NCBI GenBank assembly: GCA_902791625.1
Contig: CADAWN010000001.1
Coordinates: 35,333-99,332 of the forward strand
Length of the DNA stretch: 64,000 nucleotides
Direction: 5' to 3'
Origin: an uncultured Erysipelotrichaceae bacterium
GTDB lineage: Bacteria; Bacillota_I; Bacilli_A; RF39; UBA660
The notes under the pieces are model-generated. The model made no database searches. It saw only the letters and a program-made list of their open reading frames with translations, and was not told the origin of the DNA. Positions 36,262 through 52,276 of this stretch are shown here, one piece after another (the stretch's first letter is position 1; each line of letters begins with the position of its first letter). The position numbers and the translations under genes were made by a program.

Positions 36262-36318
36262 ACTCAAACACATTTCATTTATAACTATTATATACTATAT
36301 ATTATAAACTATAAGCTA

Positions 36319-36352
36319 CGAGCTAAGCGAGCTATCAAATTATGAACGAGCT
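36319..36352 (+). repeat. Three CGAGCTA repeats
   Basis: CGAGCT occurs at 36319, 36328 and 36347. The same core is repeated six times at 52277-52397. Confidence 0.75.
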
Positions 36353-36389
36353 ATTAACAGTGCGACAGAACATAGGCGGCAAAAAGAAA

Positions 36390-36411
36390 AGAGGGAATAT
36401 TCCCTCTTTTT
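36390..36411. terminator. Bidirectional hairpin terminator
   Basis: AGAGGGAATATTCCCTCT is flanked by A- and T-runs and abuts the stop of 36410..36649. Confidence 0.65.
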
Positions 36412-36649
36412 AATCTTCAAAAGGTTCTTGTTTATGGATAAAGAAATAATCTATTTTATCCCAGTCAATGTCATAACCTCTCTCATCTTTTTCAGGCTTT
36501 TCTCTGTTAAGGCGTTCTGCCTCAGCTTTTGCAATCTCGTCATCATAAGAGGCATAATAGGAGAGAAAAGTATCACAACTTGATTCATATTCTGTTCCTT
36601 TGTTGTAGTAAACAGGTTCCTTTGTTTTGTAGCACATTGCGTTAATCAT
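36410..36649 (-). CDS. Hypothetical early protein (79 aa)
   Basis: Track ORF with an RBS. Its own promoter reads TTGACAAACTTAAAAAAATATGTTATTAT on the minus strand near 36700. Confidence 0.65.
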   Translation of the reverse strand: MINAMCYKTKEPVYYNKGTEYESSCDTFLSYYASYDDEIAKAEAERLNREKPEKDERGYDIDWDKIDYFFIHKQEPFED

Positions 36650-36941
36650 AGTAACAACTCCTTTTATTTTTTTAAGGTTTTTCGTTTTCCTTGATTATAT
36701 AATAACATATTTTTTTAAGTTTGTCAAGTAGTTTTTAAAAATTTTTTTGTAAATAATTTATAAATAAGTTTTTATTTTTAACTAAATCAAAAGTAGAGTT
36801 ATTAAGAGATTATTAACATTGCGATACATTACGTTGTGCCGCACAGCATAAAAATATTGAATAGTATATTAATAATACGATAGAGTTAAATATAGATTAA
36901 TTATTAATAATGCGATAGTTAGAAAAAGAAAAAGGTTGACA

Positions 36942-37367
36942 TTAATCAACCTTTTCATTTAATTCAATAAAATCAATTATTTCATCATCTGTTATTATTT
37001 CGGTATCACGATTATCAAAAGTAAGTTGATACTTTTTACCTTTTTCGATGTTAATATTTTTCATTCTCCACATATTACCATCTTCTGTTATAAAAGTGTT
37101 TTCATTTACTGCGGTTGCGGTCATTTGATAATAAAACGTTTGTTCTGTTGAATAATCACTTGAACTTGAACTGCTTTCCTCTTTTGTTGATGATGTTATA
37201 CCATATATCATTACTATTATAACAATAATAATTCCATAGATTATATTTATTAAACAGATAATTGCCGCATAAGTTGGCATAGTTTCCTTATGAGCATTTT
37301 TAAAATAGCATAACGTATTGACAATAGTAAGAATAATGAGAATAACTAACATAATCTCGATTACCAT
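36942..37367 (-). CDS. Small membrane protein (141 aa, two N-terminal TM helices, Ser-rich linker)
   Basis: Track ORF with AAGGAG upstream. Its own promoter is near 37420, and the GGTTGAC..TCAACC terminator overlaps the stop. Confidence 0.65.
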   Translation of the reverse strand: MVIEIMLVILIILTIVNTLCYFKNAHKETMPTYAAIICLINIIYGIIIVIIVMIYGITSSTKEESSSSSSDYSTEQTFYYQMTATAVNENTFITEDGNMWRMKNINIEKGKKYQLTFDNRDTEIITDDEIIDFIELNEKVD

Positions 37368-37761
37368 AATTAAACATCTCCTTAAAGGTTTTAGGTTTGT
37401 CTTACTGTACTTATATAATACTATATTTTAGTAAATTTGTCAATGAATAATTTGTAAATACTTTATAAATATTTTATGAATAGAATATGAATATTGCGAT
37501 AGATTAAAATAAATCTAAAATATGAATAATTCGACAGTTTAAAAAAAATCTTAAAAATGGTTTTTGAATATTTTAATTCTTAAAAATATCCAACCCCTTA
37601 AAAGTTTATAACCCCTTAAAATAAATATGAATAAAGTTTGAATAATCCGACCCCTATTTTTTACCAAAAGAATAGAAATAAATTTGTGCAAATTGTTAAT
37701 TGACAGTACCCCTTTTTTATATTATAATATCAATAGAAAATAAAAAAGGAGTTGAGTAATT

Positions 37762-37932
37762 TTGAAAAAGACAAGTGTAACAGAACGCCGTTTTAAATGT
37801 CCTACTTGTAATTTTATTATGACTGCATACAAAAAATCAAGTCGCAGAACATCAAAAGGGCATTTAAAAAATATGTGGTGTCCAATTTGCAAAGAGGAAC
37901 ACAATTTTATTCAGTTGTCAAAGTATGAATAG
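37762..37932 (+). CDS. Zinc-ribbon protein (56 aa) that ends in TAG
   Basis: The promoter is TTGACA-17-TATAAT at about 37701-37730. The start is TTG after AAAGGAG. The protein reads KCPTC..CPIC. The TAG stop is followed by an AGAGGAAC..GTTCCCCTCT terminator. It is below the 60-aa threshold of the ORF track. Confidence 0.5.
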   Translation: MKKTSVTERRFKCPTCNFIMTAYKKSSRRTSKGHLKNMWCPICKEEHNFIQLSKYE

Positions 37933-38047
37933 AGAGGAACACTCGTTCCCCTCTATTTTATTAACTTAATATGAACATTGCGATAGAATTGAATATGAAT
38001 AAAATATTAACAATGCGATATATCAAAAGAAAAAGAAAAGAGAGTTT

Positions 38048-38272
38048 TTAACTCTCTTTTACAGTTACAATAAATGGAATTTTTCCATTCTCTCTCAAAA
38101 GCTTTTTTGCTCTTTTGATAACAGGATATGCGTGCTTTCCGTGAGTCTGTTCATATCTGCGTGACATATACCATTCAGCCATTTCAAAAGCGGCTTCTTT
38201 GTTGGTGTATGTTCTCTCAGCGACAACATCAGTAAAATTCTCGTACATAATAACAACATAATTCTTATTCAT
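38048..38272 (-). CDS. Hypothetical early protein (74 aa)
   Basis: Track ORF trimmed to the ATG (MNKNYVV..) after GAAAGGTAG. Confidence 0.6.
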   Translation of the reverse strand: MNKNYVVIMYENFTDVVAERTYTNKEAAFEMAEWYMSRRYEQTHGKHAYPVIKRAKKLLRENGKIPFIVTVKES

Positions 38273-38571
38273 AGTAAACACTACCTTTCTGGTTTATTGG
38301 GTTTTCCTTCCCTTATCTTGATTATAGTATAACATATCTTAATCAATTTGTCAATGAATATTTTATAAACTATTTGTGAACTTTTTATGAACAAAAGTAT
38401 GAATGATATGTGAACGTTGCGCCGCACACCAAATGTTACAAGAATATTAACATTGCGATAGTTACGATATTTCTTTTGATTAAAAGTTTTAATTTATTTA
38501 TAAAATATTTTCTTGACAAAATAGGATTTATGTGTTATACTATATATAGAATAATAAAGGAGGTTGTTATT

Positions 38572-38766
38572 ATGACTTTGAATGAAAAGGAAAATTTATT
38601 TTGGGATTGCACACATTACGGGAAAATTATTTTTGTAAATGATTATGATTTTAAAGCAGAAGGGATTTATGTTTCGACGTACTGTATCGAATACGAAGGC
38701 AAAAGACATTTTTTTATCAAAGCAAATGGCGCAGTTGTTCATTATGAAGAGGTTAAAGAGGATTAA
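38572..38766 (+). CDS. Hypothetical early protein (64 aa)
   Basis: ATG follows AAAGGAGGT. The upstream part of the track ORF covers the promoter (TTGACAAAATAGGATTTATGTGTTATACT). Confidence 0.65.
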   Translation: MTLNEKENLFWDCTHYGKIIFVNDYDFKAEGIYVSTYCIEYEGKRHFFIKANGAVVHYEEVKED

Positions 38767-38893
38767 ATCCTCTTTAATTTTTTATGAATATTGCGATAGT
38801 TTTCTACTAAAATTTGCAGTGCGGCACAAGGTAATTTATTGTAAAACTATTAACATTGCGATAGAACAAAAGCGAAAAAAATAAAGGTTGAAA

Positions 38894-39124
38894 TTAATCA
38901 ACCTTTATATTAAACTTATAAAAAGTATTTGAAATAGCGTCAATAATTCTTGCCATTTCAGACTTTGAAACTCTCTCGGAAATTTCAGTTAAACCGCCAT
39001 TCTCGTTAAAAATCTTGCAAAGTCTAACACCGCCATAAGCGTAGTTAAGTACAAACTGATTTGTGTTGAATTGTCTGTTGAGATTTTCAAGTTTCTTATC
39101 AAGTATTGTTTTTGTGATTGTCAT
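38894..39124 (-). CDS. Hypothetical early protein (76 aa)
   Basis: Track ORF with GGAGGT upstream. The hairpin terminator overlaps the stop. Confidence 0.65.
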   Translation of the reverse strand: MTITKTILDKKLENLNRQFNTNQFVLNYAYGGVRLCKIFNENGGLTEISERVSKSEMARIIDAISNTFYKFNIKVD

Positions 39125-39404
39125 AATAACGACCTCCTAAATTGTTTTATTGTTGTTCTTTACTGTACTTATAATATAACACATTTTCGCCAATTTGTCA
39201 ATGAATATTTTGTATTTATTTTGTAAATAAAATATGAATGACTATTAAAAAATTATGAACGTTGCGCCGCACAACAAATGTTACAAGATTGTTAATAATG
39301 CGATAGATATAGATGTATTCTTGTTCATAAAATATTTACAAAAAATCTATTGACAAAATACTATATATATGTTATACTGTATATAGTAAAAGGAGGTTGA
39401 TACT

Positions 39405-39590
39405 ATGACAACGAAAACACTTGCAAAAATGATAATAAATTCATTTACTGAAACAGACAAAGAAAAACTCAATCGTCAAATTAAATACCTTCAGACTTGT
39501 TATTTTCATAGCAATAACGTTAATCTTCAGGATGATATACAACAAACAATTTATTTTTTAATGGATAAAGTTGAAAAAATAAAAGGGTAG
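39405..39590 (+). CDS. Hypothetical early protein (61 aa) that ends in TAG
   Basis: Track ORF with AAAGGAGGT upstream. The TAG stop lies inside the terminator stem AAAGGGTAgaaaTACCCTTT. Confidence 0.65.
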   Translation: MTTKTLAKMIINSFTETDKEKLNRQIKYLQTCYFHSNNVNLQDDIQQTIYFLMDKVEKIKG

Positions 39591-39786
39591 AAATACCCTT
39601 TTTATTTATTAATTTTCTTTAAAAATGCGACTGCGGCAAAACGTAATTTATTACAAGAATATTAACAATGCGATAGTATAATAGTTTTCACATTTTAAAG
39701 CATTAAAACTTTTTGTAATTAAATTGTAATCTTTTGTAATCAAAATGTAATTGACTTTTACTCTATTTTATGTTATATTATATATA

Positions 39787-40051
39787 GGGATAAGGAAGGG
39801 AGAACAAATACTGGATGCACCCTTCCTGAGTAATGCCTACGAAGTTACTACTAACAAAGGCAAGGGGAAGTAGCGCAGTTACCATTTCTGCGATAGTGAA
39901 TTTGGGGCTTACAACCAACTGTAACGAAGGCGGTTATTCGGCAAGTGAGTAGTGTACATATCTCACAAACCGCAAAAGATATATACCTATCGGGTCAAGT
40001 CTATGGACTTGACAGGAACCTACCCGCAAAAACGGTAGGTATATTTCTTTT
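39787..40051 (+). ncRNA. Candidate structured ncRNA (~265 nt), class unknown
   Basis: The promoter is TTGACT (39751) -17- TATATT. No ORF or RBS follows. Several strong helices are visible (GGAAGGG/CCCTTCC, GTCAAGTC-tatg-GACTTGAC, GCGGTT../AACCGC). The unit ends in the terminator CCTACCCGcaaaaaCGGTAGGTATATTTCTTTTT. Confidence 0.55.
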
Positions 40052-40291
40052 TAAATTGATTAAAATTTTTAATTATTACTAAGTTATGAACAATGCGATA
40101 GTTACAAGTATAAATAAACTATTAACAATGCGACCGCACTATCGTATTCTTAACATAGTCTTAATAATTGCGCAATCGCAACGTTCATATTCTATTCACA
40201 AATCAATTCACAGAAATTTAATTTTTCAACTCTTGATTTTTAATATTTATTGTGGTATAATAATATTAGAAATTTAAAAGGAGGTCATAAT

Positions 40292-40600
40292 ATGACAAAA
40301 AATAACAATCTTAATTCTAAATACTGTGAGCCAATACTGCACCTTGCTAACTTGTGTTCTGCCGAGGGTATTCCTTTTGTTGTACGTCCAGCGTTTGAGG
40401 GGCTACAGCTTGTATGTCCGAGCTTAGAGAAATGGGAGTTTGATGTTATCTGCCATAGAGGTAGCTATGGACACGAGCAGGGGCTACTTGAAATTATGGG
40501 AGCTATTTGCAATGCTTGTGATGATGATGTAGAGGGCTACTTAGAAGTTGAAGAGGTTTTCGAGAGAATTAAAAAGTATTATAAAAAAAGGAGCTTATGA
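40292..40600 (+). CDS. Hypothetical early protein (102 aa), Cys/His-rich
   Basis: ATG follows AAAGGAGGT. The upstream part of the track ORF covers promoter DNA. Confidence 0.65.
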   Translation: MTKNNNLNSKYCEPILHLANLCSAEGIPFVVRPAFEGLQLVCPSLEKWEFDVICHRGSYGHEQGLLEIMGAICNACDDDVEGYLEVEEVFERIKKYYKKRSL

Positions 40601-40788
40601 TAATATAAAGGACTACTCAACTGTTGAGGAAATTTTTGAAGATATTAGAAAATGTTATAAAAAGGGAGAATAATCTCCCTTTTTCTTTTTTTAATAAAAT
40701 ATGAACAATGCGATAGACAAATTAGTTAAAATTTTTAATTAAATAAATAAAGAAAAAGGTTGATATTAATATCAACCTTTTAGTTTTC

Positions 40789-40992
40789 TTATTCTCTAAA
40801 GTCATCATAAATTTCAATTTCAATATCTGGCTTTATTCCCTCTGTGGAAGCAATTGCACCGATATAAATAACAAATTGATTCCATTCACATTCTTTTGAT
40901 AATTTTTCAAAATAAGCAAATACCTCATCAGGTACATTTACCATTTTACAAAAATCATCATCACTTGTTTTTATAAGTCTACCAATTTTCAT
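40789..40992 (-). CDS. Hypothetical early protein (67 aa)
   Basis: Track ORF with GGAGGT upstream. It has its own promoter (TTGACTTTTAGTTGGGAAAGTGTTATTAT on the minus strand). Confidence 0.65.
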   Translation of the reverse strand: MKIGRLIKTSDDDFCKMVNVPDEVFAYFEKLSKECEWNQFVIYIGAIASTEGIKPDIEIEIYDDFRE

Positions 40993-41223
40993 TTCTTTAC
41001 CTCCTAAAGTTAATCTTACTGTTGTTTTTTACTGTAACTATATAATAACACTTTCCCAACTAAAAGTCAATTACTTTTTTATTACAAAAGGTTACAATTC
41101 GGTTACAATTAAATATTAATAAATAATGTATAGTGCGGCATACTATATTATGAAAATGTAAACAGTACGATAGAGGTTTTAGTTAAAAGTTTTAATTAAT
41201 TAAATAAAAGAAAAAGGTTGACA

Positions 41224-41448
41224 TTAGTCAACCTCAATCTCGTCTATAATGAATATATCATCTAAATACTCAAAATCATTTTCAGCAAAATCATGAAATG
41301 CCTCATTTTCTCTATTGGCATCAAAGCCACAATTCTTATCAATAAAATTCCTTGCGCCAATTATTGCCTCATACATAGTATTATAAAATTTGTGTATATG
41401 AGTTCTACCGCACCAAGAACCTTCAATAATAAGAGCATATTTTTTCAT
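41224..41448 (-). CDS. Hypothetical early protein (74 aa)
   Basis: Track ORF with an RBS. The GGTTGACATTAGTCAACC terminator overlaps the stop. Confidence 0.65.
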   Translation of the reverse strand: MKKYALIIEGSWCGRTHIHKFYNTMYEAIIGARNFIDKNCGFDANRENEAFHDFAENDFEYLDDIFIIDEIEVD

Positions 41449-41613
41449 AGTATCAAATCCTTCCTCGTTTTAAAGAGTTTCGTTCTCTTATCTTGATTAT
41501 ATTATACTATATCCCAATTAAAAAATCAATAGACAAAATACACAAAGTTTCTACTTAAAAATTAGTAAAAATTTATCTTGACAAATTGAGATAAATATGT
41601 TATATTATATATA

Positions 41614-41707
41614 AAGAAAGGCAAATACAAAGTCGACCGAGGGTGCAATAGTGCCATAGGTCAAAATCTAAAACCTTAAAAAGGCGGTTTTCTATAACCG
41701 CCTTTTA
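41614..41707 (+). ncRNA. Candidate small RNA (~95 nt)
   Basis: The promoter is TTGACA (41578) -17- TATATT. No ORF follows. The body contains GACC..GGTC helices and ends in AAAAGGCGGTTttctatAACCGCCTTTT. Confidence 0.5.
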
Positions 41708-41951
41708 ACTTTTTATGAATATTCCGACCCCTTTTAAAAATTAAATTTATGTTAAATATCCGACTGACTATCGTACTGTTCATAAAATATTCAACCCCTT
41801 TTACAGTCGCCTTGTTCATAATTCCGTAATAGTTAAAAATTTTAATTAAAATGAAAATTAAAAGAGGTGCAGACGCATCCACACCCCTTAAGCATAGTCC
41901 GCAGACGTTTGCCGTTTTATTCTGTATCTGTTACCTCACAAAGTTTAACCT

Positions 41952-42131
41952 TTATCTCATAATCAGATAAATAACTCCTATTGCAATAAGACCAATAATA
42001 AAAGTTATCCATATTGGTGAAAGTACCCATACCCACGACCATTTAATTACTCCGCAAAGTTTAAGTACAATAAAAACCAATGCCAATACACTTGGAAAAC
42101 TCATTCCACCACTTACATTCTTCTTTTCCAT
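41952..42131 (-). CDS. Small membrane protein (59 aa)
   Basis: ATG at 42129-42131 follows GAGAAAGG. The protein MEKKNVSGGMSFPSVLALVFIVLKLCGVIKWSWVWVLSPIWITFIIGLIAIGVIYLIMR has two TM helices. It is below the ORF-track threshold. Confidence 0.5.
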   Translation of the reverse strand: MEKKNVSGGMSFPSVLALVFIVLKLCGVIKWSWVWVLSPIWITFIIGLIAIGVIYLIMR

Positions 42132-42232
42132 AATATCAAAACCTTTCTCGTTTTAAAGAGTTTCCGTTCTCTTATCTTGATTATATTATATCATATAATC
42201 TTGTTTTTGTCAATCGTCAAATTATACAAATC

Positions 42233-42469
42233 TTATGCTTCTATTTCATGCCTTTCTGTCCATATTACCCCTTCAATTCCAAAACTTATACGACTATCAG
42301 AGTATGAATGTGCTAATTTTGCAAAATAATCACTGTAAAAACTTTCCTTTTCATATTGTTTCAAAAACTGTCTACAATAATTATATGCACAAAGTGGATG
42401 TGAAAAAATATGAATCTTAATCTTAGAAGTTGACAAATCAAAATAATGAACCAACCAAACAAATCTCAT
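42233..42469 (-). CDS. Hypothetical early protein (78 aa)
   Basis: Track ORF with AAAGGAGGT upstream. Confidence 0.65.
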   Translation of the reverse strand: MRFVWLVHYFDLSTSKIKIHIFSHPLCAYNYCRQFLKQYEKESFYSDYFAKLAHSYSDSRISFGIEGVIWTERHEIEA

Positions 42470-42644
42470 AATAATACCTCCTTTTCTTTTCTATAATTAT
42501 TATACCATAAAATTTTTTAAAAATCAATAGATAAAATGTTAAATGTTTGTGAATTTTGCGCCGCCCTTGTTAAGAAAATATAAACGTTACGATAGGTGAT
42601 TTGATTAAAAATTTTAATTAAATAGAAAAAGAAAAAGGTTGATT

Positions 42645-43450: not shown

Positions 43451-43463
43451 AGGAGGTTTAAAA

Positions 43464-43670: not shown

Positions 43671-43682
43671 GGAGGTTTAAAA

Positions 43683-45340: not shown

Positions 45341-45354
45341 TTATAAAACCTCCT

Positions 45355-45537: not shown

Positions 45538-46098
45538 TTTAAATTCAACTCCTTTTCTTTTACTATAATCATTATACCATAAAAATTATTAAATGTCAAT
45601 AGAAATAAAATTAAACTTTTATTAATTAGTTAAAAGATTTAATTATTACAGAATTATGAACACTGCGATAGTACTACATTATGAACATACTATAAATATT
45701 ACGACCGCACTGCCGCACTGTTAATATCTTCTTAACAAACTCAACTGCCGCACCGTTCACAATTTCGCAATAATTAAAAATTCTAACCAATTAACAAAAA
45801 CTTAATAAAAAAAATTTTCAAAACCTATTGACAAACAACTTGAAATATGCTATACTATATATAGTGAAAGAGAGAAAAACAAAAAACTCTCAAAAGTAAC
45901 TTGACTTTCCCCAATAGTCAAAACGCACAAAAGTAAACAATAAAGTTTGTGCAAAATGCCAGTTGACTTTCCTTGAAAAGTATGCTATAATGTATACAGA
46001 ACAAAGGAAAGAGAGGCAAAGAAAATCCCAAAATCATACGTCCCCAATAACAAATCAATGTCAGCCGATAGACGTTAAAACGGAGAAAGAGGTAAATT

Positions 46099-46449
46099 AT
46101 GACACAGAGAGATTTTTACAACGCAATCGCTAACAACACAGAGCTTGCACCTGAGCTTACAGATTTTGCAAAGGAAGCTATCAAGGCACTCAACAAGAAG
46201 AATGAGGCACGCAATAGCAAGGCAAACGCAAAGAAGGCAGAGGTCAATGCACCTATTATTGCCGCTATCCGTGAGGTACTTGCAGACGGCAAGCCGCATT
46301 TTGCAGGTGATGTTGCCACAGCAGTAGAGCAGTCACTCCCAAAGGTTGCCGCACTTGTTAAGACTATGGCAGATGTAGCCGTATCAAAGGCAAAGCCGGA
46401 GGGCGCAAAGGCAAAGAAAACTGTTTACACTCTTGTTGTTGAGCAGTAG
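46099..46449 (+). CDS. Small Lys/Ala-rich protein with a winged-helix-like C-terminus, paralog 1 of 4; ends in TAG
   Basis: Track ORF MTQRDFYNAIANN... The leader contains GGAGAAAGAGG. Tandem promoters lie at about 45826 and 45962. GC content is higher and the codons look optimised (AAG/GCA-rich). Confidence 0.7.
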   Translation: MTQRDFYNAIANNTELAPELTDFAKEAIKALNKKNEARNSKANAKKAEVNAPIIAAIREVLADGKPHFAGDVATAVEQSLPKVAALVKTMADVAVSKAKPEGAKAKKTVYTLVVEQ

Positions 46450-46777
46450 TCAATAAATGGAAACGGTGAACAAAAGTTCGCCGTTTCTTTTTTTCTAATT
46501 AGTTAAAAATTTTAACTATTACGAAATTATGAACATTGCGATAGTTCTATTTATAACAAAAGTATGAACAATACGATAGGTTAATGTCGTATTATTAACA
46601 TAATCTTAACATTTTGTACTGCCGCACTGTTCATATTTTCGCAACATTTTAGCACTTTAAACTACTAAAGTGTTCGTAACCACTTTGTAACCTTTTGTAA
46701 TAATTCTGTAATTGACTTTTATAGTTATATGTTGTATAATACGTATAGAAACTTAAAGAAAGACAGGTGTTCAAAAA

Positions 46778-47440
46778 TTGAATAAGCGTTTGTATATTGT
46801 ACTTGACACGGAAACTACAAACAACATGGATTTTCCTTTTGTTTATGATTTAGGTTTTTCCGTTGTTGACAAAACAGGCAAGGTATATTACAAAAGGTCA
46901 TTTGTAATTTATGATATTTATGTGCTTTGCAAAGACTTAATGAGAACAGCGTACTATGCAAATAAACTCCCACAATATGAAATTGACTTGAAATCTAAAA
47001 AGCGTGAACTTGTTAGATTTTCCACGGCAAGAAAAATTATACTCCAAACAATGAAAAAGTATAATATATATGCAATTATGGCACACAATATGCGTTTTGA
47101 CCTTAATGCACTTAATACCACTTTAAGATATATAACAACATCACAACAGAGGTATTTTTTCCCACAAGGCACAAGACTTTGGTGCACTTTGGCAATGTCA
47201 AGGTCAATTTTCAAAAACAAACCTACATACAAGAGGTATTGTGAAGAAAACGGATACTTGACAAGAAACAAGCAAATAAAACTCACAGCGGAAATTATTT
47301 ACAGGTTTATTACTGGAAATAATGACTTTGTTGAAAATCACACGGGACTTGAAGATGTAATGATAGAAAAGGAAATTTTTTCCTACTTGAAAAGACAGCA
47401 TAAAAAAATGCAGTTGACTTACTGGAAAGAAACGGCATAA
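46778..47440 (+). CDS. DEDDh (DnaQ-like) 3'-5' exonuclease, copy 1
   Basis: The track ORF contains the motifs VLDTETTN, AHNMRFDLNALN and HTGLEDVMIEKEIF (H-x4-D). Confidence 0.75.
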   Translation: MNKRLYIVLDTETTNNMDFPFVYDLGFSVVDKTGKVYYKRSFVIYDIYVLCKDLMRTAYYANKLPQYEIDLKSKKRELVRFSTARKIILQTMKKYNIYAIMAHNMRFDLNALNTTLRYITTSQQRYFFPQGTRLWCTLAMSRSIFKNKPTYKRYCEENGYLTRNKQIKLTAEIIYRFITGNNDFVENHTGLEDVMIEKEIFSYLKRQHKKMQLTYWKETA

Positions 47441-47599
47441 GCCGTTTTTTTCTACCCCTATTTAGTTAAAAGATTTAACCTTTGCCGCAAGTCGCAACGT
47501 TCACAATTTATTCACACTATCGCATTATACATACCCCGTTAATAATTAAAAAATAAAACTAATTCACAAAAACTTAATAAAAAAATTTTCAAAAACCTA

Positions 47600-47628
47600 T
47601 TGACAAATAAATATATATGTACTATAAT
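47600..47628 (+). promoter_or_regulatory. Consensus early promoter, given as an example of the family
   Basis: TTGACA, a 17-nt spacer, TATAAT, then TATATACAGAAAAG. The same layout sits in front of nearly every gene between 36 and 61 kb. Confidence 0.7.
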
Positions 47629-47660
47629 ATATACAGAAAAGAAAAAAGGAGGTTGTCAAT

Positions 47661-48113
47661 ATGGCAATAGAAAAAACAATTAACTTTGATTTAGATGGGA
47701 CTTTAGCAGACCTTTACGGCGTGGAAAATTGGCTTGCATATTTGCAGGCAGGTGATAGTACACCTTATGAAACAGCAAAGCCCCTTGTAAAGATGCAGGT
47801 GCTTGCAAGAATGTTGAATAACAAAAAAAGACAGGGTTTTACAATAAATGTTATATCATGGCTTGCTAAAAATTCAAACCCTGAATATGATGAAAAGGTA
47901 AAAAATGCTAAATTAAATTGGCTGAAAAAACATCTCAAAAGCGTTGAATTTGATAATATATTTATTGTAGAATATGGTACTCCCAAGCAAAATTTGGCAA
48001 AAGGTTTTTTATTCGATGACGAGGTAAATAATAGAATAAACTGGAAGGGTATTGCTTTTGATGTGAATAATATAATAAATGATTTAAAGACATTAACTAA
48101 TTACACCTCCTAA
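47661..48113 (+). CDS. HAD-superfamily phosphatase (5'-nucleotidase-like)
   Basis: The track ORF has N-terminal FDLDGTLAD (the DxDxT motif I) and a late FDDE. Confidence 0.65.
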   Translation: MAIEKTINFDLDGTLADLYGVENWLAYLQAGDSTPYETAKPLVKMQVLARMLNNKKRQGFTINVISWLAKNSNPEYDEKVKNAKLNWLKKHLKSVEFDNIFIVEYGTPKQNLAKGFLFDDEVNNRINWKGIAFDVNNIINDLKTLTNYTS

Positions 48114-48343
48114 ATTATGGAAATGGCGAACAAGTGTTCGTCATTTCTATTTTGTTATTTAGTTAAAAATTTTAACTGCGGCACAGGGTATCGCAATGTT
48201 CACATTTCCGTAACATTTTAACGCTTTAAAGTATTAAAGTAAAACTGTAACTACTTTGTAACTATTCGTAACTAAATTGTAATTGACAAATCAAAAGATA
48301 TATGCTATAATGTATACAGAAAAGAAAAAAGGAGGTTGCTAAT

Positions 48344-48715
48344 ATGGCAAAGTCAGTAAAAACAATGAAAACTGAAAAGAAAAATGAGTACATTGAAAAA
48401 ATTACCAAATTCCTTCTTGAAAATGAGGAGGACGTGGTAAGAACTGGAAGCGGTGAACTTGCTTTTCCTATTGTCCTTGAAAATGGAGATGAATGCTTTA
48501 TTACTCTCAAAGTATCAATACCCACAGGGACAAGAGATGGTGAAGATTATAACGGTTATGCAGTAGCAAACAGTTATAAAATTGACTGCGAAAAATCCGC
48601 AGTAAAAGCGGAAAATGCAAGGAAAGCAAAAGAAAAGAAAATTGCCGCAGACAAAAAACGCCGTGAAAACTCCGCAAAAATTAAAGCGGAGAGAGAAAAG
48701 AGAAAAGAGGGATAA
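48344..48715 (+). CDS. Hypothetical protein with a basic KKIAADKKRRE tail (paralogous to 59353..59772)
   Basis: Track ORF with AAAGGAGGT upstream. It shares its C-terminal motif and overall layout with the minus-strand genes at 59.0-59.8 kb. Confidence 0.65.
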   Translation: MAKSVKTMKTEKKNEYIEKITKFLLENEEDVVRTGSGELAFPIVLENGDECFITLKVSIPTGTRDGEDYNGYAVANSYKIDCEKSAVKAENARKAKEKKIAADKKRRENSAKIKAEREKRKEG

Positions 48716-48880
48716 CCTCTTTTCTTTTTATTTAATTAGTTAAAAATTTTAACTATTGCCGCAAGTCGTATTGTTAATAGTTTCTTAACATTTTTGTACT
48801 GCCGCACTGTTCATACTTTGGTAATAATTAAATCTTTTAATCAATTCACAAAAAGTTAATAAAAAAATTTTCAAAACCTA

Positions 48881-48909
48881 TTGACAAATCGGAAAATCTA
48901 TGTTATACT
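48881..48909 (+). promoter_or_regulatory. Consensus early promoter for paralog 2
   Basis: TTGACA, a 17-nt spacer, then TATACT with a TG extension. Confidence 0.65.
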
Positions 48910-48990
48910 ATATACAGAGTTAAGGGAAAAGCCCTTAAACAATAAAGTAAAGAGAGCCGAACTCAATAAAACGGAGAAAGTAGGTAAATT

Positions 48991-49332
48991 ATGACACAGA
49001 GAGATTTTTACAATGCAATCGTTAAGGCAGATGTAGCACAGGAGTTGAAGGACTATGCAAGCGCACAGGTTCAGGCACTTAACAACAAGAACTCCGCAAG
49101 AAATGTCAAGGCAAGGGCAAAAAAGGCAGATGAAAACAAACCCCTTGTAGCACAGATTAAGACAATCCTTGCAGACGGTCAGGCACATACTTGCTCTGAA
49201 ATTTCCGCAAGCACTGGCGCAAATATTCCTAAGGTATCCTCCCTTATAACCACATATTTCAAGGATACTGTTATAAGAGAAACTGTTAAGGTAGACAAGA
49301 AGAGGGCAGTTGCATATCGCCTTGCACAGTAG
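48991..49332 (+). CDS. Small winged-helix-like protein, paralog 2 of 4; ends in TAG-TAA
   Basis: Track ORF MTQRDFYNAIVKAD... Its leader AGAGAGCCGAACTCAATAAAACGGAGAAAG is conserved. Confidence 0.7.
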   Translation: MTQRDFYNAIVKADVAQELKDYASAQVQALNNKNSARNVKARAKKADENKPLVAQIKTILADGQAHTCSEISASTGANIPKVSSLITTYFKDTVIRETVKVDKKRAVAYRLAQ

Positions 49333-49540
49333 TAAAAATTGGAAAACGGCAGAAATGCCGTTTTTCTTTTCACTTAATTAGTTAAAAATTTTAACTATTG
49401 CCGCGGGTCGTAATGTTCATAATTCCATAATATTTAAAATAAATAACAAATTCACAAAACTTTAATAAAATAACTATTGACTTTTAATATTTTTTATGTT
49501 ATACTGTATATAGAAAATAAAAAGAAAGGTGGTTGCTAAT

Positions 49541-49972
49541 ATGGCAAATATGTATTTTAATGATGATTTTGAGGTATGTTCAATAAGTAAAGACCCTGCG
49601 TATCTTTACATTGATGACGTAGACAAGTTCCTTTATGATTGCGGTGATGGTTACGTTTCTGATGGTGTAGATAAGTCAGGCGTTTATCTATGGAATAACT
49701 ACTATTGTGTATGGGATTTAGCCGACCCTGAAATTGATAAGAAAATTAGAGCATTAGTTGAGGAGATTAACACTCTCCGTCAAGAAAAATCACACCAGGA
49801 TAATAATAAAGTTACTGGGTGGAATATTTCAGTTACTCTTGACTCAGGTTTGTGTGTTAAAATCAATAATGAACCTATTTCAATGGATAAAGTCCCTGAG
49901 ATAATAAATACTCTTCTTAAACCATACTTTTTCGGTAAGAGAATTATAGAATTTGAGATAGTTGCGGAGTAA
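49541..49972 (+). CDS. Hypothetical early protein (143 aa)
   Basis: Track ORF trimmed to the ATG after AAAGGTGGT. Confidence 0.65.
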   Translation: MANMYFNDDFEVCSISKDPAYLYIDDVDKFLYDCGDGYVSDGVDKSGVYLWNNYYCVWDLADPEIDKKIRALVEEINTLRQEKSHQDNNKVTGWNISVTLDSGLCVKINNEPISMDKVPEIINTLLKPYFFGKRIIEFEIVAE

Positions 49973-50158
49973 TCCGCAACTTTTTTATTTTAGAGTTAGT
50001 CATTCCTAACCGACCGTCGCATCATTCACACTTTCGTAACATTTTATAGCGGCGGCACAAAATAACCAAAAATTACTCCTAAACTTTGTGCATTTTGCCA
50101 ATAGACAACCTCTTTAATCTATGCTATAATAAAAATAGAAATTAAGGAGGTTGAACCA

Positions 50159-50790
50159 ATGGCAAAAAAGAAATTCTATATGGTACTTGATACCGAAACG
50201 GCAAACGGACTTGATGACCCTCTTGTTTATGATATAGGTTTTGCAATCATAGACAAAAAAGGTCAAGTCTATCTTGAAAAATCCTTTGTTATTTACGATA
50301 CTTTTGTTTTGATGAAGGACTTAATGCAGACGGCATATTATTCCGAAAAAATCCCACAGTATGAGGATGACTTAAAAAACGGTAAAAGAAAACTTGTTAC
50401 CCTTGCAACCGCACAATCAATAATTGCATATAACCTTAAAAAGTTTAATGTTAGTGCGGTAATTGCCCACAATATGAGATTTGACTATAACGCCCTTAAT
50501 ACAACCCTCCGTTATTTAACTAAATCTCAAAAGCGTTATTTTCTCCCCTATAATACTACAATTTGGTGCAGTCTTGCGATGGCACGAACAACAATAGGCA
50601 AACAAAAAACGTATCAACTTTGGTGTAAAGACTTACTGCCGAAATTCTCTACCGATATATAACAGATAATAACGATTTTATCGAAAGCCATACAGGACTG
50701 GAGGACGTTCTTATCGAAAAGGAAATTTTTGCACATTGTATTCGTCAACACAAGAAAATGCAACGCACATACTGGAAGGAAACGGCATAA
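50159..50790 (+). pseudogene. DEDDh exonuclease copy 2, disrupted by a frame-shifting internal deletion
   Basis: Residues 1-160 align with copy 1. After LWCK the frame breaks (stop at 50660-50662). The rest (RLTAEILYRYITDNNDFIESHTGLEDVLIEKEIF..WKETA) continues in another frame to TAA at 50788-50790. About 34 nt are missing relative to copy 1. Confidence 0.6.
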
Positions 50791-50975
50791 GCCGTTTTCT
50801 TTTTTATTTAATTAGTTAAATTTTTTAACTGCGGCACAAGGTGTCGCATTGTTCACAGTTCAGTAATAATTAAATCTTTTTACTAATTAACAAAAACTTT
50901 AAAAAATAACTGTTGACATTTAATAAAATCTATGCTATACTGTATATAGAAAATAAAAAGAAAGAAGGTTTTAAA

Positions 50976-51167
50976 ATGGCAACTTTTACAGTACGTTTTA
51001 TCCAGGAGTATACCTACGAGGTGGAGGCAAATGATGTTGATGAGGCAATAGATAACGCCGAGGAAGAGTTTAGTTTTGATATGTGTTCACCAATAGCCAA
51101 TACTACATGGGACGAAATGATAGTAGAAGATGAAGATGGAGAAGAAGTCGCACATGGATATATGTAA
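50976..51167 (+). CDS. Hypothetical acidic protein (63 aa)
   Basis: ATG follows AAGAAGGT. The upstream part of the track ORF is promoter DNA. Confidence 0.6.
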   Translation: MATFTVRFIQEYTYEVEANDVDEAIDNAEEEFSFDMCSPIANTTWDEMIVEDEDGEEVAHGYM

Positions 51168-51182
51168 AGGAGGTTAAAAATA

Positions 51183-51416
51183 ATGAATATTATTACTGCA
51201 CCAAGATACCAAGATTTTAGCGGACATATCCATAAAACAAAAGAGGATTGTGTAAATGCAGAAAAGAATTTTAAAGAAAATATTATTCAGACATTTAAAG
51301 AATTGGCAAAAGGTTGTAGAAATCAAAAAAATTGTAAAGATTGTCCTTTTCAACATGAAATTAAATGTTTTTTTGGTGAAACAACAGGTGAACTTCCAAT
51401 ACACTGGGATATTTAA
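51183..51416 (+). CDS. Cys-rich small protein (77 aa), paralog of 51810..52064
   Basis: Track ORF with AAAGGAGGT upstream. It shares the blocks PRYxDFxGxIxxTxxxCxNAExNF..FxELAKGC. Confidence 0.65.
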   Translation: MNIITAPRYQDFSGHIHKTKEDCVNAEKNFKENIIQTFKELAKGCRNQKNCKDCPFQHEIKCFFGETTGELPIHWDI

Positions 51417-51609
51417 GAAGGGGATACCCCTTCTTTTTTTTATTTTAATTAGTTAAAAAATTTAACTGCGGCGCAAGGTGTCGCGGCATTCATATTCTCT
51501 TAATAATTAAAACAACTAACTAATTAATAAAAATTTAATTTTATTTCTATTGACTTTTAATAAAAACTATGTTATAATAAATATAGAAAATAAAGAGGAG
51601 GTAGTCCAA

Positions 51610-51804
51610 ATGCTAACTATTAGAGATTTAATCTGTCAAGGTGCCGACCTTGATATGCCAATCTGTGTATTGGCACGAACTCATGATGAAAAAGGTAACT
51701 GCACAGGCGTATACTATTCTTATGCTGAAATACCATCGGACAATTTCACAATTGTAGATGGTATACTCACTATAATGACAGATGTTAATGATGTAGGAGG
51801 TTAA
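51610..51804 (+). CDS. Hypothetical protein (64 aa)
   Basis: ATG follows GAGGAGGT. The upstream part of the track ORF is promoter DNA. Confidence 0.6.
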   Translation: MLTIRDLICQGADLDMPICVLARTHDEKGNCTGVYYSYAEIPSDNFTIVDGILTIMTDVNDVGG

Positions 51805-51809
51805 AAACA

Positions 51810-52064
51810 ATGAGAGTAATCAATGAACCAAGATACGAAGATTTTAAAGGAAAAATCTACAGGACACAAAAAGAGTGTATAAACGCAGAAAACAACTTTG
51901 TAGAAGATGTTTTCCAGTTGTTTGAAGAATTGGCAAAAGGTTGCGGAAAATATGGAGCCGAGTGCAATGGTTGTCCCTTTTATGATAATAACTTAGATTA
52001 TTGTTCTATTCAAGCAACAACAGGCGATGCACCAGCAAATTGGATATTTAAAGAAGGGGAATAA
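51810..52064 (+). CDS. Cys-rich small protein (84 aa), paralog of 51183..51416
   Basis: Track ORF with GGAGGT upstream. Confidence 0.65.
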   Translation: MRVINEPRYEDFKGKIYRTQKECINAENNFVEDVFQLFEELAKGCGKYGAECNGCPFYDNNLDYCSIQATTGDAPANWIFKEGE

Positions 52065-52276
52065 TCCCCTTTTTTATTTATTTAATTAGTTAAAAATTTT
52101 AACTTTCTTGCTCTGTCGCAACGTTCACAAATCCTTAACATATTACAAAACTATGAACATAGCGTCCGTCCATTTGGTTAAAACATTTAACTAATTAACA
52201 AATCCTTAACATCTCCCATGATCGAACATACGTTCGCCTCCACCATTGCATAATCTATCTATCCCCCTTCCATAAT

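What the first reader, a model, noticed from the sequence alone, without database searches (positions are those of the whole stretch)
36340..52160. A second intergenic motif family: TGAAC(A/G)(A/T)TGCGA(T/C)AG boxes paired with GCGGCAC boxes
Nearly every intergenic region between 36 and 52 kb carries one to three copies, in either orientation, of a box such as TATGAACATTGCGATAG, ATTAACAATGCGATAG, GTGAACGTTGCGCCGCAC or (reversed) GGTGTCGCATTGTTCACAG. I noted examples near 36345, 36820, 36905, 37493, 37975, 38015, 38412, 38450, 38780, 38850, 39255, 39300, 39665, 40085, 40125, 40692, 44385, 44430, 45655, 46530, 46570, 47495, 48190, 48765, 49405, 50015, 50840, 51478 and 52112. In 47.4-51.5 kb the order is fixed: 21-bp palindrome, then GC(C/G)GCA(C), then GT(C/G)GCAnTGTTCAC, then TAATAATTAAA, then the promoter. 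This composite module is much more conserved than the genes it separates.
Basis: seen in the sequence. Interest (0 to 1): 0.6.

Follow-up and report, generated by a model that had tools for sequence, protein, structure and literature searches.

The report
Phased regulatory boxes between phage cassettes
A 17-bp DNA box sits between almost every small early gene of a gut phage that reads TAG as glutamine; it is the outer end of 11-bp-phased repeat arrays that run up to the promoters, so it is most likely a protein docking site that controls the early genes together, and the repeated spacers also let gene cassettes be swapped.

Summary
The box T[A/G]T[G/T]AA[C/T]-R-N-T-[G/a]-C-G-[A/g]-[T/C]-A-[G/c] scores at least 17 bits 48 times in the 16-kb early region. 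It does so once in the other 147 kb of the phage contig, once in 1.37 Mb of the co-binned genome, and 0.03 times in shuffles. All 29 listed sites are confirmed, and about 25 more exist. 27 of 29 gaps between transcription units carry a box.

New anatomy: the two box halves lie 11 nt apart. Boxes pair at 35 bp and form dyad quartets. The nearest box upstream of a promoter never points towards it. Box-to-(-35) gaps form an 11-bp ladder, filled by co-oriented TTNAYA hexamers.

Four related phage contigs keep the family. The T.T.AA.....CGA skeleton is 95% identical between relatives; flanks are 66%. More distant relatives keep the TRTGAAC arrays with another partner element.

"GCGGCAC boxes" are mixed: box variants, inverted partners, and a separate contig-wide motif.

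Best reading (about 0.5): cooperative binding sites for a fast-evolving, probably phage-encoded protein (candidate: winged-helix paralogs) that switches sigma-A-type early promoters. They sit inside PeSL-like cassettes that also drive cassette shuffling. Nothing here shows binding or function.

The parts
36008..52168 (.). Box-bearing early region: about 30 single-gene or small transcription units read in the standard code. Each has a sigma-A-type promoter and an intrinsic terminator. The units are separated by paralogous spacer modules.
36352..36368 (+). box TATTAACAGTGCGACAG, pointing into the terminator of the - gene 36410-36649
36811..36918 (+). three boxes (36811-36827, 36867-36883, 36902-36918); the last two are 35 bp apart
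37486..37537 (+). box pair 37486-37502 and 37521-37537, 35 bp apart, upstream of the - promoter 37415-37443
37444..37485 (-). example of a phased hexamer array on the - strand: TTCATA, TTCATA, TTTATA, TTTACA, then TTCA|TTGACA. The period is 11 bp and the array links box 37486 to the -35 hexamer.
37970..38021 (+). box pair in a convergent terminator gap (37970-37986, 38005-38021)
38409..38461 (+). box pair between divergent promoters (38409-38425, the GCGCCGC variant; 38445-38461)
38783..38864 (+). two boxes (38783-38799, 38848-38864) flanking a contig-wide-type element, TTTGCAGTGCGGCACAAGGTA, at 38821
39254..39306 (+). box pair (39254-39270, the GCGCCGC variant; 39290-39306)
39660..39676 (+). 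single box, preceded by GCGGCAAAACGTA at 39633
40085..40189 (.). quartet A> B> <B' <A' (40085-40101+, 40120-40136+, 40139-40155-, 40173-40189-) upstream of the + promoter 40233
40700..40716 (+). single box next to the palindrome and terminator of the - gene 40789-40992
41157..41173 (+). box, TGTAAAC variant
41714..41820 (.). boxes 41714-41730+, 41768-41784-, 41804-41820-
42548..42595 (+). box pair 42548-42564 and 42579-42595
43129..43232 (.). quartet between the divergent promoters 43049-43077(-) and 43288(+)
43963..43979 (+). weak box TATGAATACCACGACAC
44381..44439 (+). box pair in a convergent gap, 42 bp apart
44966..45017 (+). box pair upstream of the - promoter 44906-44934, followed by GCGGCAC at 45021
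45655..45761 (.). quartet between the divergent promoters 45571-45599(-) and 45828(+)
46528..46635 (.). quartet (46528+, 46563+, a weak one at 46584-, 46619-) after palindrome 46500-46520 and before promoter 46712
47489..47533 (-). two reversed boxes after palindrome 47463-47483
48188..48204 (-). reversed box; with GCGGCAC at 48178 it forms the 7-3-7 inverted repeat GCGGCAC-AGG-GTATCGC
48763..48815 (-). two reversed boxes 36 bp apart
49405..49421 (-). reversed box
50014..50030 (-). reversed box
50841..50857 (-). reversed box with an inverted GCGGCAC partner at 50831
51478..51494 (-). reversed box with an inverted GCGGCGC partner
52113..52168 (.). boxes 52113-52129- and 52152-52168+ at the right border of the early region
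46500..46520 (.). 21-bp palindrome TAGTTAAAAATTTTAACTA, the first element of the spacer module. Other copies lie at 47463, 48160, 48737, 49379, 50813, 51450, 52087 and 52361, with looser copies at 40058, 40722, 41181, 41833, 42604, 44447 and 45627.
46099..46449 (+). candidate box-binding protein: 116 aa, a long helix followed by a winged helix-turn-helix. Paralogs lie at 48991-49332(+), 53967-54254(-) and 59842-60201(-).
58837..58861 (.). outlying box-like pair (TGTGAACAGTGCCGCAA + and TCTTAACTTTGCGGCAC -) upstream of a - promoter outside the early region

Best explanation
The boxes are DNA-level cis-elements. Each is a bipartite 17-bp site whose halves, TRTKAA and CGAYAG, lie one helical turn (11 nt) apart. 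The box forms the distal, high-information end of arrays of co-oriented TTNAYA hexamers. These arrays are phased at 11 bp and run on one face of the helix down to the -35 hexamer of the near-consensus sigma-A-type early promoters.

I infer that a sequence-specific DNA-binding protein docks on the boxes. It is probably phage-encoded and fast-evolving. The best candidate is the family of winged-helix paralogs with a long dimerising helix. Docking would be cooperative, across 35-bp pairs and dyad quartets, and would extend along the phased hexamers to the promoter. That would regulate about 30 independent early transcription units as one block. Because the promoters are already consensus, the likeliest effect is shut-off or insulation at the early-to-late switch.

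The boxes are one component of a 150-260-bp spacer module that has been copied between cassettes: terminator, 21-bp palindrome, boxes, AT-rich phased region, promoter. Because this module is repeated, it also supplies short homologies at which cassettes are gained, lost and replaced between related phages, as PeSLs do in T4-type phages.

Shown here: the motif, its restriction to the early region, its polarity, spacing and phasing, purifying selection on a skeleton of positions, conservation in relatives, and cassette indels at repeated motifs. Inferred: protein binding, the identity of the binder, and the direction of regulation.
For: Restriction to the early region and enrichment.

All boxes lie in stretches expected to be untranscribed or barely transcribed: between a terminator and the next promoter, or between divergent promoters.

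Position-specific purifying selection between relatives: the skeleton T.T.AA.....CGA is identical in 266 of 279 comparisons, flanks in 279 of 422, and variable in-box positions in 182 of 274 (Fisher p = 1e-22 and 3e-19).

The pair spacing of 35 +/- 1 bp is kept although the spacer sequence is not, both here and in G001.

The nearest upstream box points away from the promoter at 20 of 28 promoters and never towards it. The gaps are 20, 31, 42/43, 51-55, 65/66, 76-78 and 83-86 nt. Rayleigh R is 0.62-0.83 at a period of 11-11.5 bp in three genomes.

Same-strand TTNAYA hexamers lie exactly 11 bp apart 39 times, against 1.4 expected. They start 15, 26, 37, 49, 61, 72, 83 and 95 nt before the -35 hexamer in the window, G001 and L035.

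The same family occurs in four related contigs, with a concerted T-to-C shift at box position 15: 27:21 here, 12:47 and 8:27 in relatives.

The TRTGAAC arrays persist in relatives whose flanking sigma-like protein (window 33669-34856) is 60% and 49% identical to the window's, but next to different partner elements.

The other contigs of the assembly have no boxes and no 11-bp signal.

The winged-helix paralogs fold with pLDDT 86 and resemble ArsR/SmtB/MarR proteins. Every relative has 1-4 strongly diverged copies.

Cassette indels between 95%-identical relatives are flanked by direct copies of the reversed box, or of the RBS complement.
Against: Boxes also lie in convergent terminator-terminator gaps where there is no promoter to regulate.

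Overall box identity between orthologous regions (80%) is no higher than that of neighbouring intergenic DNA.

The winged-helix family also occurs in relatives that lack the arrays (G004, G006), so co-occurrence does not single it out. Its Foldseek E-values are only about 0.02.

A phylogenetic-profile screen for proteins present only in array-bearing phages returned GIY-YIG and PD-(D/E)XK endonucleases, and no obvious regulator.

The phased AT-rich arrays could instead be intrinsically curved UP-type DNA that needs no dedicated protein.
Confidence: 0.5

Rival explanations
1. Host-factor sites. The arrays would be bound by a host regulator that recognises tandem hexamers at an 11-bp period. An OmpR/PhoB-family response regulator such as WalR or PhoP is one possibility. 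This would tie early phage transcription to the host's physiological state, as Spo0A boxes do in phi29.
For: The hexamers are direct repeats at exactly 11 bp. The WalR consensus TGTWAH-N5-TGTWAH (PMC6624279) occurs 12 times against 1.2 expected, and 11 of those lie in the early region, mostly just upstream of one class of promoters. The TRTGAAC half is conserved across phages whose partner element differs, as expected if the binder is conserved. The box of the relatives whose flanking sigma-like protein is 60% identical, TGTAATCGTTTACA, fits the Firmicute cre/LacI-type palindrome TGWAANCGNTNWCA (own knowledge).
Against: Most box hexamers (TATGAA, TGTGAA) do not fit the consensus TGTWAH. The full box occurs once in 1.37 Mb of the co-binned genome, and that genome shows no 11-bp hexamer signal. 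It is unproven, however, that this genome is the host.
Confidence: 0.15
2. No dedicated function. The boxes would be conserved patches of a spacer module that spreads by duplication and recombination (PeSL-like homology patches or curved UP DNA), kept similar by gene conversion rather than by a binding protein.
For: Whole spacers, not only the boxes, are paralogous (alignment A1). Cassette indels between close relatives end in repeated motifs, including a non-box one, the RBS complement AACTCCTTT. Overall box identity equals that of neighbouring intergenic DNA.
Against: Gene conversion homogenises tracts, not alternating positions. Here the skeleton positions are 95% identical, while interleaved positions and the 18-nt spacers are 50-70% identical or unalignable. 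Spacing and 11-bp phase are kept across three genomes.
Confidence: 0.15
3. DNA-topology, replication or segregation sites. Candidates include binding sites for the phage's own type II topoisomerase, origin iterons for the DnaD-like protein at 52445-53233, or polar fork or roadblock sites. Any of these could explain the regional strand polarity that flips near 47 kb.
For: Polarity is regional: + up to 46.6 kb and - from 47.5 kb. The phage encodes GyrB/GyrA-like proteins (read by eye) and a DnaD-like protein beside the region. The densely packed, strongly transcribed cassettes in both orientations would generate supercoiling.
Against: The polarity follows the local promoter and terminator orientation just as well. 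Iterons normally cluster within a few hundred bp and are not spread over 16 kb. No skew switch independent of gene orientation is seen. The register with the -35 hexamers points to transcription.
Confidence: 0.08
4. Promoters for a phage-directed transcription mode (middle or antisense), related to the contig-wide motif TTTGTAGTC-GCGGCAC.
For: Both motifs share the architecture T(A/T)TG(A/T)A(C/G)-N2-3-GCG(G/A)(C/T)A(C/G), and hybrid forms exist, such as TATGAACAGTGCGGCAG. A sigma-like protein (phrog_5767) lies next to the region.
Against: The contig has no T7-like RNA polymerase and no Sigma70_r2 domain, although for PF00940 none of the control genomes matched either, so that absence is weak. 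The sigma-like protein has no Pfam hit. The boxes of a quartet face each other 1-4 nt apart. Forward boxes fire straight into bidirectional terminators 8-38 nt away. The motif is too compact for a -35/-10 promoter.
Confidence: 0.05
5. Site-specific recombination sites or a mobile element (attC-like, or a MITE/REP-like element).
For: The quartets are imperfect inverted repeats of about 110 bp built from four boxes, reminiscent of R''-L''-L'-R'. One cassette indel is flanked by direct box copies.
Against: The contig has no tyrosine or serine recombinase. The cassettes carry their own promoters and terminators and lie in both orientations. The spacers inside the arms are not complementary, and the quartets fold only weakly as single strands (z from -0.65 to -4.0). 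Another indel uses the RBS instead. The boxes are confined to one 16-kb region and never occur as insertions elsewhere.
Confidence: 0.05

Closest known systems
PeSLs (promoter-early stem-loop cassettes) of T4-type phages (Arbiol et al. 2010, PMC2839356; Comeau et al. 2014, PMC4122927)
   Same: Both are repeated composite modules made of a stem-loop terminator, an AT-rich upstream region and a strong sigma-70-type early promoter. Both flank small orphan genes in a plastic early region. Between close relatives, genes are gained, lost or replaced, with junctions inside the repeated motifs.
   Different: There is no sequence homology. This is a siphovirus-like, TAG-recoded phage of an AT-rich Firmicute-type host. 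The module carries extra elements that are not part of PeSLs: a 21-bp palindrome, bipartite 17-bp boxes in 35-bp pairs and quartets, and 11-bp phased hexamer arrays in register with the -35 hexamer. Mini-circles were not tested.
Multi-site nucleoprotein switches at phage early promoters, such as phi29 p4/p6 complexes and host Spo0A boxes at phi29 early promoters (own knowledge)
   Same: Several phased sites upstream of or overlapping strong host-RNAP early promoters could be used to shut early transcription off cooperatively.
   Different: The sequences and proteins are different. Here the sites are repeated at about 30 separate promoters over 16 kb, and binding has not been shown.
OmpR/PhoB-family response-regulator sites, such as WalR TGTWAH-N5-TGTWAH (PMC6624279)
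   Same: Direct hexamer repeats with an 11-bp period abut the -35 hexamer. One class of promoters carries perfect TGTAAC/TGTAAT-N5 arrays.
   Different: Most box hexamers are TATGAA or TGTGAA, and the second half, CGAYAG, is unrelated. The co-binned genome shows no matching arrays. The candidate phage protein resembles ArsR/MarR proteins, not OmpR.
T4 MotA boxes at middle promoters (own knowledge)
   Same: A short phage-specific box is added to promoters of the early region and read by a phage-encoded winged-helix-type activator to retime transcription.
   Different: MotA boxes replace the -35 hexamer at a fixed position (-30). Here the -35 hexamers are consensus, and the boxes lie 20-86 nt upstream on an 11-bp ladder.

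Membership tests
PeSL-type regulatory cassettes | Composite of a strong sigma-70-type early promoter, an AT-rich upstream region and an adjacent stem-loop terminator | tested here: met
   28 near-consensus promoters were found. 40 terminator-like sites were found against 6.4 expected. Module alignment A1 shows the composite.
PeSL-type regulatory cassettes | Repeated between small orphan genes of a hyperplastic region | tested here: met
   27 of 29 gaps carry the module. Most early proteins have no family hit.
PeSL-type regulatory cassettes | Indels or replacements between close relatives, with junctions in the repeated motif | tested here: met
   In L035 versus L036 (95% identical), one indel is flanked by direct ..TGTTCATACTTT box copies and another by AACTCCTTT. 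The window versus G001 is a mosaic.
PeSL-type regulatory cassettes | Formation of cassette mini-circles; homology to the T4-type elements | not testable with these tools
   Inverse PCR on phage DNA is needed. No sequence similarity is expected, because the phage and host are different.
Transcription-factor operator/enhancer array | Sequence-specific motif under position-specific selection | tested here: met
   Skeleton positions are 95% identical, flanks 66%.
Transcription-factor operator/enhancer array | Constrained position and orientation relative to promoters | tested here: met
   The nearest upstream box never points towards the promoter. The gaps form an 11-bp ladder, and the hexamers are in register with the -35 hexamer. 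About 9 boxes lie in promoter-less convergent gaps.
Transcription-factor operator/enhancer array | A cognate DNA-binding protein that binds the site | not testable with these tools
   Only a candidate exists, the winged-helix paralogs. The profile screen gave no specific regulator.
WalR/PhoP-type response-regulator sites | Direct hexamer repeats with an 11-bp period | tested here: met
   39 pairs at exactly 11 bp, against 1.4 expected.
WalR/PhoP-type response-regulator sites | Hexamers fit TGTWAH, and the host genome carries the same regulon motif | tested here: not met
   Only the class II arrays and the TGTTAA-type boxes fit. The majority are TATGAA or TGTGAA. The other contigs of the assembly show no 11-bp peak.
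Integron attC / site-specific recombination sites | Recombinase encoded nearby; promoter-less co-oriented cassettes; a folding imperfect palindrome | tested here: not met
   No PF00589 or PF00239 hit on the contig. The cassettes have their own promoters and lie in both orientations. Folding is weak.
MITE/REP-like mobile repeats | Dispersed copies with terminal inverted repeats that are inserted or absent as whole units | tested here: not met
   Copies are confined to 16 kb. Single boxes, pairs and quartets grade into each other. No whole-unit polymorphism was seen.
Phage-specific promoters (T7-like RNAP or phage sigma) | A cognate polymerase or sigma is present, and the motif is oriented towards genes | tested here: not met
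   No PF00940 or PF04542 hit on the contig, though the PF00940 control matched in no genome. The boxes point into terminators or at each other.

The most novel reading that the evidence does not exclude
The boxes and the phased hexamer arrays could be the DNA half of a phage-encoded 'early-region chromatin'. In this reading, a family of rapidly diversifying winged-helix paralogs nucleates at the bipartite boxes and polymerises along one face of the DNA over every spacer of a 16-kb block. That would silence or insulate about 30 host-RNAP early cassettes at once when the phage switches to its TAG-recoded late programme. Protein and box would co-evolve between lineages: GCGATAG here, GCGACAG in close relatives, and palindromic partner elements in more distant ones. 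This would be a new type of block-wise temporal switch, which also defines the units of cassette exchange.
Probability: 0.2. Interest if true: 0.7.

Novelty: new variant of a known kind. Interest (0 to 1): 0.5.

Why it matters
Large gut phages that recode TAG are known mainly from metagenomes, and how they time their early genes (standard code) against their late genes (recoded) is an open question. This early region offers an unusually regular and testable cis-regulatory grammar. It has one bipartite box per cassette, strict 11-bp phasing to consensus promoters, and lineage-specific variants. If a phage protein reads it, that protein is a handle on the early-to-late switch of this clade. The same repeated spacers also explain how the early accessory genes, which are likely host-takeover and anti-defence genes, are shuffled between relatives. 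That would extend the PeSL principle from T4-type coliphages to an unrelated phage group of AT-rich Firmicute-type hosts.

Tried and rejected
1. Near-identical phage records: megablast against INPHARED phages found nothing.

2. An exact-pattern scan of IMG/VR gave 21 loci, of which only one (L003) was a true relative; the rest were single chance hits.

Rfam found no family in 35-53.5 kb.

4. The hairpin or cruciform reading of the quartets: single-strand folds are weak and inconsistent (z -0.65, -0.93, -2.4, -2.8, -3.0, -4.0), and the spacers are not complementary.

5. The promoter reading: no T7-like RNAP or Sigma70_r2 on the contig, and the orientation is wrong.

6. The site-specific recombination reading: no integrase or resolvase on the contig.

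7. The contig-wide motif TTGTAGTCGCGGCAC is not conserved in more distant relatives, so it could not be used as an anchor.

8. A phylogenetic profile looked for proteins present in the array-bearing genomes G002 and G003 and absent from the array-less G004 and G006. It gave six ORFs, mainly two GIY-YIG+HTH homing endonucleases and a PD-(D/E)XK nuclease, which are probably mobile genes unrelated to the boxes.

9. Autoregulation of the winged-helix genes: no boxes lie upstream of paralogs 3 and 4.

10. Resemblances to the DnaA box, LexA (Cheo) box, Rex, Spo0A, sigma-54 and ECF promoters were considered by eye and dropped, because the conserved skeleton or the spacing does not fit (own knowledge).

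11. ARAGORN did not recognise a tRNA-like ...CCACCA element in relative L036.

Full report
CONTEXT. The window is C1:35333-99332 of a 1.53-Mb assembly with about 25% G+C. Contig C1 is 163 kb with 29.6% G+C. It is a phage-like contig whose late genes are open only if TAG is read as an amino acid. ORF coverage of the first 70 kb rises from 0.25-0.9 to 0.93-0.99 with TAG=Q, and the longest ORF becomes 2,472 aa. It encodes a tape-measure protein, Dit, portal, large terminase and a sigma-like protein. By eye, it also encodes GyrB/GyrA-like, DnaB-like and Pol III alpha-like proteins. The stretch at 36-52 kb of the window is different. It holds about 30 short genes read in the standard code. Nearly every gene has its own near-consensus TTGACA-17-TATAAT promoter and an intrinsic, often bidirectional, terminator. 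The scan found 40 terminator-like sites against 6.4 expected.

OBSERVATION CHECK. The pattern WAAYRWTGCGAYAG with one mismatch occurs 23 times, against 0.61 expected. A position-weight matrix built by iteration gives 54 sites at 15.5 bits or more between 36.0 and 52.2 kb. At 17 bits or more there are 48 sites in this 16.2-kb stretch. There is 1 in the other 147 kb of C1, 1 in the remaining 1.37 Mb of the assembly, and 0.03 on average in 100 dinucleotide shuffles. 27 of 29 gaps between transcription units carry at least one box. No gap inside an operon does, and no box lies in a gene. The consensus is (A)AA(T)-T-[A/G]-T-[G/T]-A-A-[C/T]-[A/g]-N-T-[G/a]-C-G-[A/g]-[T/C]-A-[G/c].

ANATOMY. Six points emerge.
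- The halves TRTKAA and CGAYAG start 11 nt apart, which is one helical turn.
- Boxes on the same strand pair at 35 +/- 1 bp in 16 of 20 close pairs. The 18-nt spacer between them is not conserved.
- Four gaps carry a dyad quartet A> B> <B' <A' with 35/18/35 spacing, at 40085-40189, 43129-43232, 45655-45761 and 46528-46635. The inner boxes meet head-to-head 1-4 nt apart.
- Polarity is strong. Boxes are on the + strand up to 46.6 kb, except the right halves of quartets, and on the - strand from 47.5 to 52.1 kb. This follows the neighbouring genes. The nearest box upstream of a promoter points away from it at 20 of 28 promoters and never towards it. Every - gene, and every + gene of the right part, has a box pointing into its terminator at 8-38 nt.
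- The gap from the TAT end of that box to the -35 hexamer is 20, 31, 42/43, 51-55, 65/66, 76-78 or 83-86 nt, which is an 11-bp ladder. Rayleigh R is 0.62 here, 0.64 in relative G001 and 0.77-0.83 in L035, at a period of 11-11.5 bp.
- The ladder is filled. The hexamer TT[CAT]A[CT]A is the reverse of the box's 5' half. It occurs on the same strand exactly 11 bp apart 39 times, against 1.4 expected, with further peaks at 22/24, 33/35 and 46. Co-oriented copies start 15, 26, 37, 49, 61, 72, 83 and 95 nt before the -35 hexamer in three genomes. An example on the - strand at 37443-37502 reads box, TTCATA, TTCATA, TTTATA, TTTACA, TTCA|TTGACA.

The box is therefore the distal, GC-containing cap of a phased array that reaches the promoter. 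Alignment of 12 spacers (A1) shows that whole spacers are paralogous. Their order is T-tract, 21-bp palindrome, boxes, TAATAATTAAA, AATTCACAAAAACTT, promoter. This confirms the fixed order described for 47.4-51.5 kb. There the module has lost boxes A, B and sometimes B'.

GCGGCAC. The 'GCGGCAC boxes' are not one thing. In about 10 boxes, GCSGCA(C/G) replaces GCGATAG, as in TATGAACAGTGCGGCAG. In 10 of 54 boxes, an inverted copy of the 3' half lies within 8 nt (background 2.3%). This gives, for example, GCGGCAC-AAG-GTGTCGC. Others carry the context of a contig-wide motif, TTTGTAGTC-GCGGCAC-AAGGTA, including those at 36836-, 38821+, 43142+ and 50052+. GCGGCAC occurs 73 times on C1, at 0.45 per kb, against 0.006 per kb elsewhere in the assembly. 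It often lies just before ribosome-binding sites, and sometimes before a -35 hexamer. The two motifs share an architecture, but the contig-wide form is not conserved in more distant relatives. I did not resolve what it is.

RELATIVES. Contig IMGVR_UViG_3300028887_000117 (G001) is 75-83% identical in DNA and syntenic. It has 53 boxes against 1 for the control pattern, with the same polarity. Three ENA contigs (L035-L037) carry the family too. In aligned orthologous regions, whole boxes are 80% identical. Other intergenic DNA is 80%, genes are 78%, and promoter hexamers are 96%. Within the box, however, the skeleton T.T.AA.....CGA is identical in 266 of 279 comparisons. Flanks are identical in 279 of 422 and the interleaved positions in 182 of 274 (p = 1e-22 and 3e-19). 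Position 15 has shifted in concert: T:C is 27:21 here, 12:47 in G001 and 8:27 in L035.

More distant relatives were ranked by the identity of their sigma-like protein to the window's (33669-34856). They lack the full box but keep the 11-bp TRTGAAC/TTCAYA arrays in their early regions. G002 (60% identical) has them at 0-15 kb and G003 (49%) at 90-110 kb. There they are combined with other elements. One is TATGAAC-N3-CGGCGGCAC next to the palindrome TGTAATCGTTTACA, which fits the cre/LacI-type consensus (own knowledge). The other is CCGTTATAACGG flanked by <GTTCATA ... TATGAAC>. Two equally distant genomes, G004 and G006, have no arrays.

CASSETTE SHUFFLING. The window and G001 are mosaics of shared and unshared cassettes. 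Between the 95%-identical L035 and L036, one 980-bp cassette is flanked by direct copies of the reversed box end..TGTTCATACTTT. Another indel is flanked by the RBS complement AACTCCTTT. Exchange therefore uses any short conserved regulatory motif, as proposed for PeSLs (PMC2839356). The boxes are not privileged crossover sites. C1 has no tyrosine or serine recombinase.

WHAT IT IS NOT.
- It is not a known RNA. There is no Rfam hit, and the boxes lie between terminators and promoters.
- It is not a promoter. No T7-like RNAP or Sigma70_r2 hit lies on C1, although the PF00940 control matched in no genome. The boxes of a quartet face each other, and forward boxes point into terminators.
- It is not attC-like or MITE-like.
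- It is not a motif of the co-binned genome.

CANDIDATE READER. The paralogs 46099-46449, 48991-49332, 53967-54254(-) and 59842-60201(-) fold with pLDDT 86. The fold is a short helix, a 44-residue helix and a winged helix-turn-helix. The best Foldseek matches are SmtB/ArsR and MarR repressors, with E about 0.02 and probability 0.98-1.0. Five of the six relatives searched have 1-4 copies. These are only 27-34% identical in the more distant relatives, whose sigma-like protein is still 47-60% identical to the window's. That is the pattern expected of a protein that co-evolves with its sites. The family also occurs in the array-less genomes, however. A profile screen for array-specific proteins found only homing-type nucleases.

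MECHANISM. The best-supported reading (about 0.5) is as follows. A sequence-specific protein docks on the bipartite box, which offers two grooves one turn apart. It binds cooperatively across 35-bp pairs and quartets. It acts through the phased hexamers that abut the -35 hexamer. Because the promoters are already consensus (11-12 of 12 positions, with TG), repression or insulation at the early-to-late switch is more likely than activation. The repeated module also mediates cassette exchange. The rivals are a host regulator that reads tandem hexamers (0.15), no dedicated function (0.15), topology or replication sites (0.08), phage-specific promoters (0.05), and recombination sites or mobile elements (0.05). 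The host-regulator rival rests partly on the WalR-type pattern TGTWAH-N5-TGTWAH, which occurs 12 times against 1.2 expected.

COMPARISON AND NOVELTY. In function, the module behaves like a PeSL with three additions: a palindrome, bipartite boxes and phased arrays. It is not homologous to PeSLs. I found no description of this box family. I rate it a new variant of a known kind, namely repeated early regulatory cassettes with operator-like arrays.

LIMITS. There are no transcript or binding data. The host is not established. The spacers are paralogous, so the ladder and phase statistics are not independent samples, although they recur in three genomes.

Noticed in passing
whole contig C1; e.g. 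window 28715, 33164-, 33246, 33645, 57242-; C1 1598, 107327-, 116204-, 129437-, 153244-, 157679: Contig-wide motif (A/T)TTTGTAGTC-GCGGCAC-(A/C)A(G/A)GTA. GCGGCAC occurs 73 times on the phage contig (0.45 per kb) against 0.006 per kb in the rest of the assembly. It often lies 8-40 nt before a start codon, sometimes in divergent pairs, and sometimes about 18 nt before a TTGACT -35 hexamer. It may be a middle or late regulatory element. It is not conserved in more distant relatives.
   Followed up: partly
window 39714-39751, 41091-41107(-), 43077-43114(-), 46696-46712, 48246-48262: One class of early promoters has 2-4 tandem TGTAAC/TGTAAT hexamers at an 11-bp period that end on the -35 hexamer. 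They fit the WalR consensus TGTWAH-N5-TGTWAH exactly. There are 12 matches in the window against 1.2 expected, and 11 lie in the early region.
   Followed up: partly
window 36180-36260: The non-coding hub left of the early region carries six (G)TTCACA hexamers about 11 bp apart. This is the same half-box family as the reversed 5' half of the boxes.
   Followed up: partly
window 36319-36352 and 52277-52397: CGAGCT(R) repeats occur only at the two borders of the box-bearing region, interleaved with TATGAAC half-boxes. They are conserved at the left border of relative G001.
   Followed up: no
window 50159-50790: This is a second copy of the DEDD-type exonuclease-like gene 46778-47440 (phrog_20187). 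Its reading frame stops at 50662, although similarity to the paralog continues to about 50790, so it is probably a frameshifted or decaying duplicate. Other paralog pairs are 51183-51416 with 51810-52064, and 46099-46449 with 48991-49332.
   Followed up: no
window 39751-40051, 41578-41706, 45856-46098: These are promoter-to-terminator units, or long leaders, without an ORF. No Rfam family matches.
   Followed up: no
L036 4520-4640 (relative): After an early promoter lies a GC-rich, structured stretch of about 120 nt that ends ...GGTGCGACTCCCATCTTCTCCACCA. It looks like a tRNA 3' end but is not called by ARAGORN.
   Followed up: partly
C1 14098-14952 and 21770-22642 (outside the window): Two free-standing GIY-YIG homing endonucleases with C-terminal HTH domains lie in the replication module. 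One sits between the two Pol III alpha-like ORFs. A PD-(D/E)XK nuclease lies at C1 124726-125160. All three are shared with G002 and G003 but not with G004 and G006.
   Followed up: partly
window 37762-37932: A 56-aa zinc-ribbon protein (CxxC...CxxC) is the most conserved early-region protein. It is 50-66% identical in all four more distant relatives.
   Followed up: no
G006 (IMGVR_UViG_3300021400_000027), contig ends: In this relative, which has direct terminal repeats, the sigma-like gene lies 3.4 kb from one end and the winged-helix genes lie near the other end. The physical termini therefore seem to fall inside or next to the early region.
   Followed up: no
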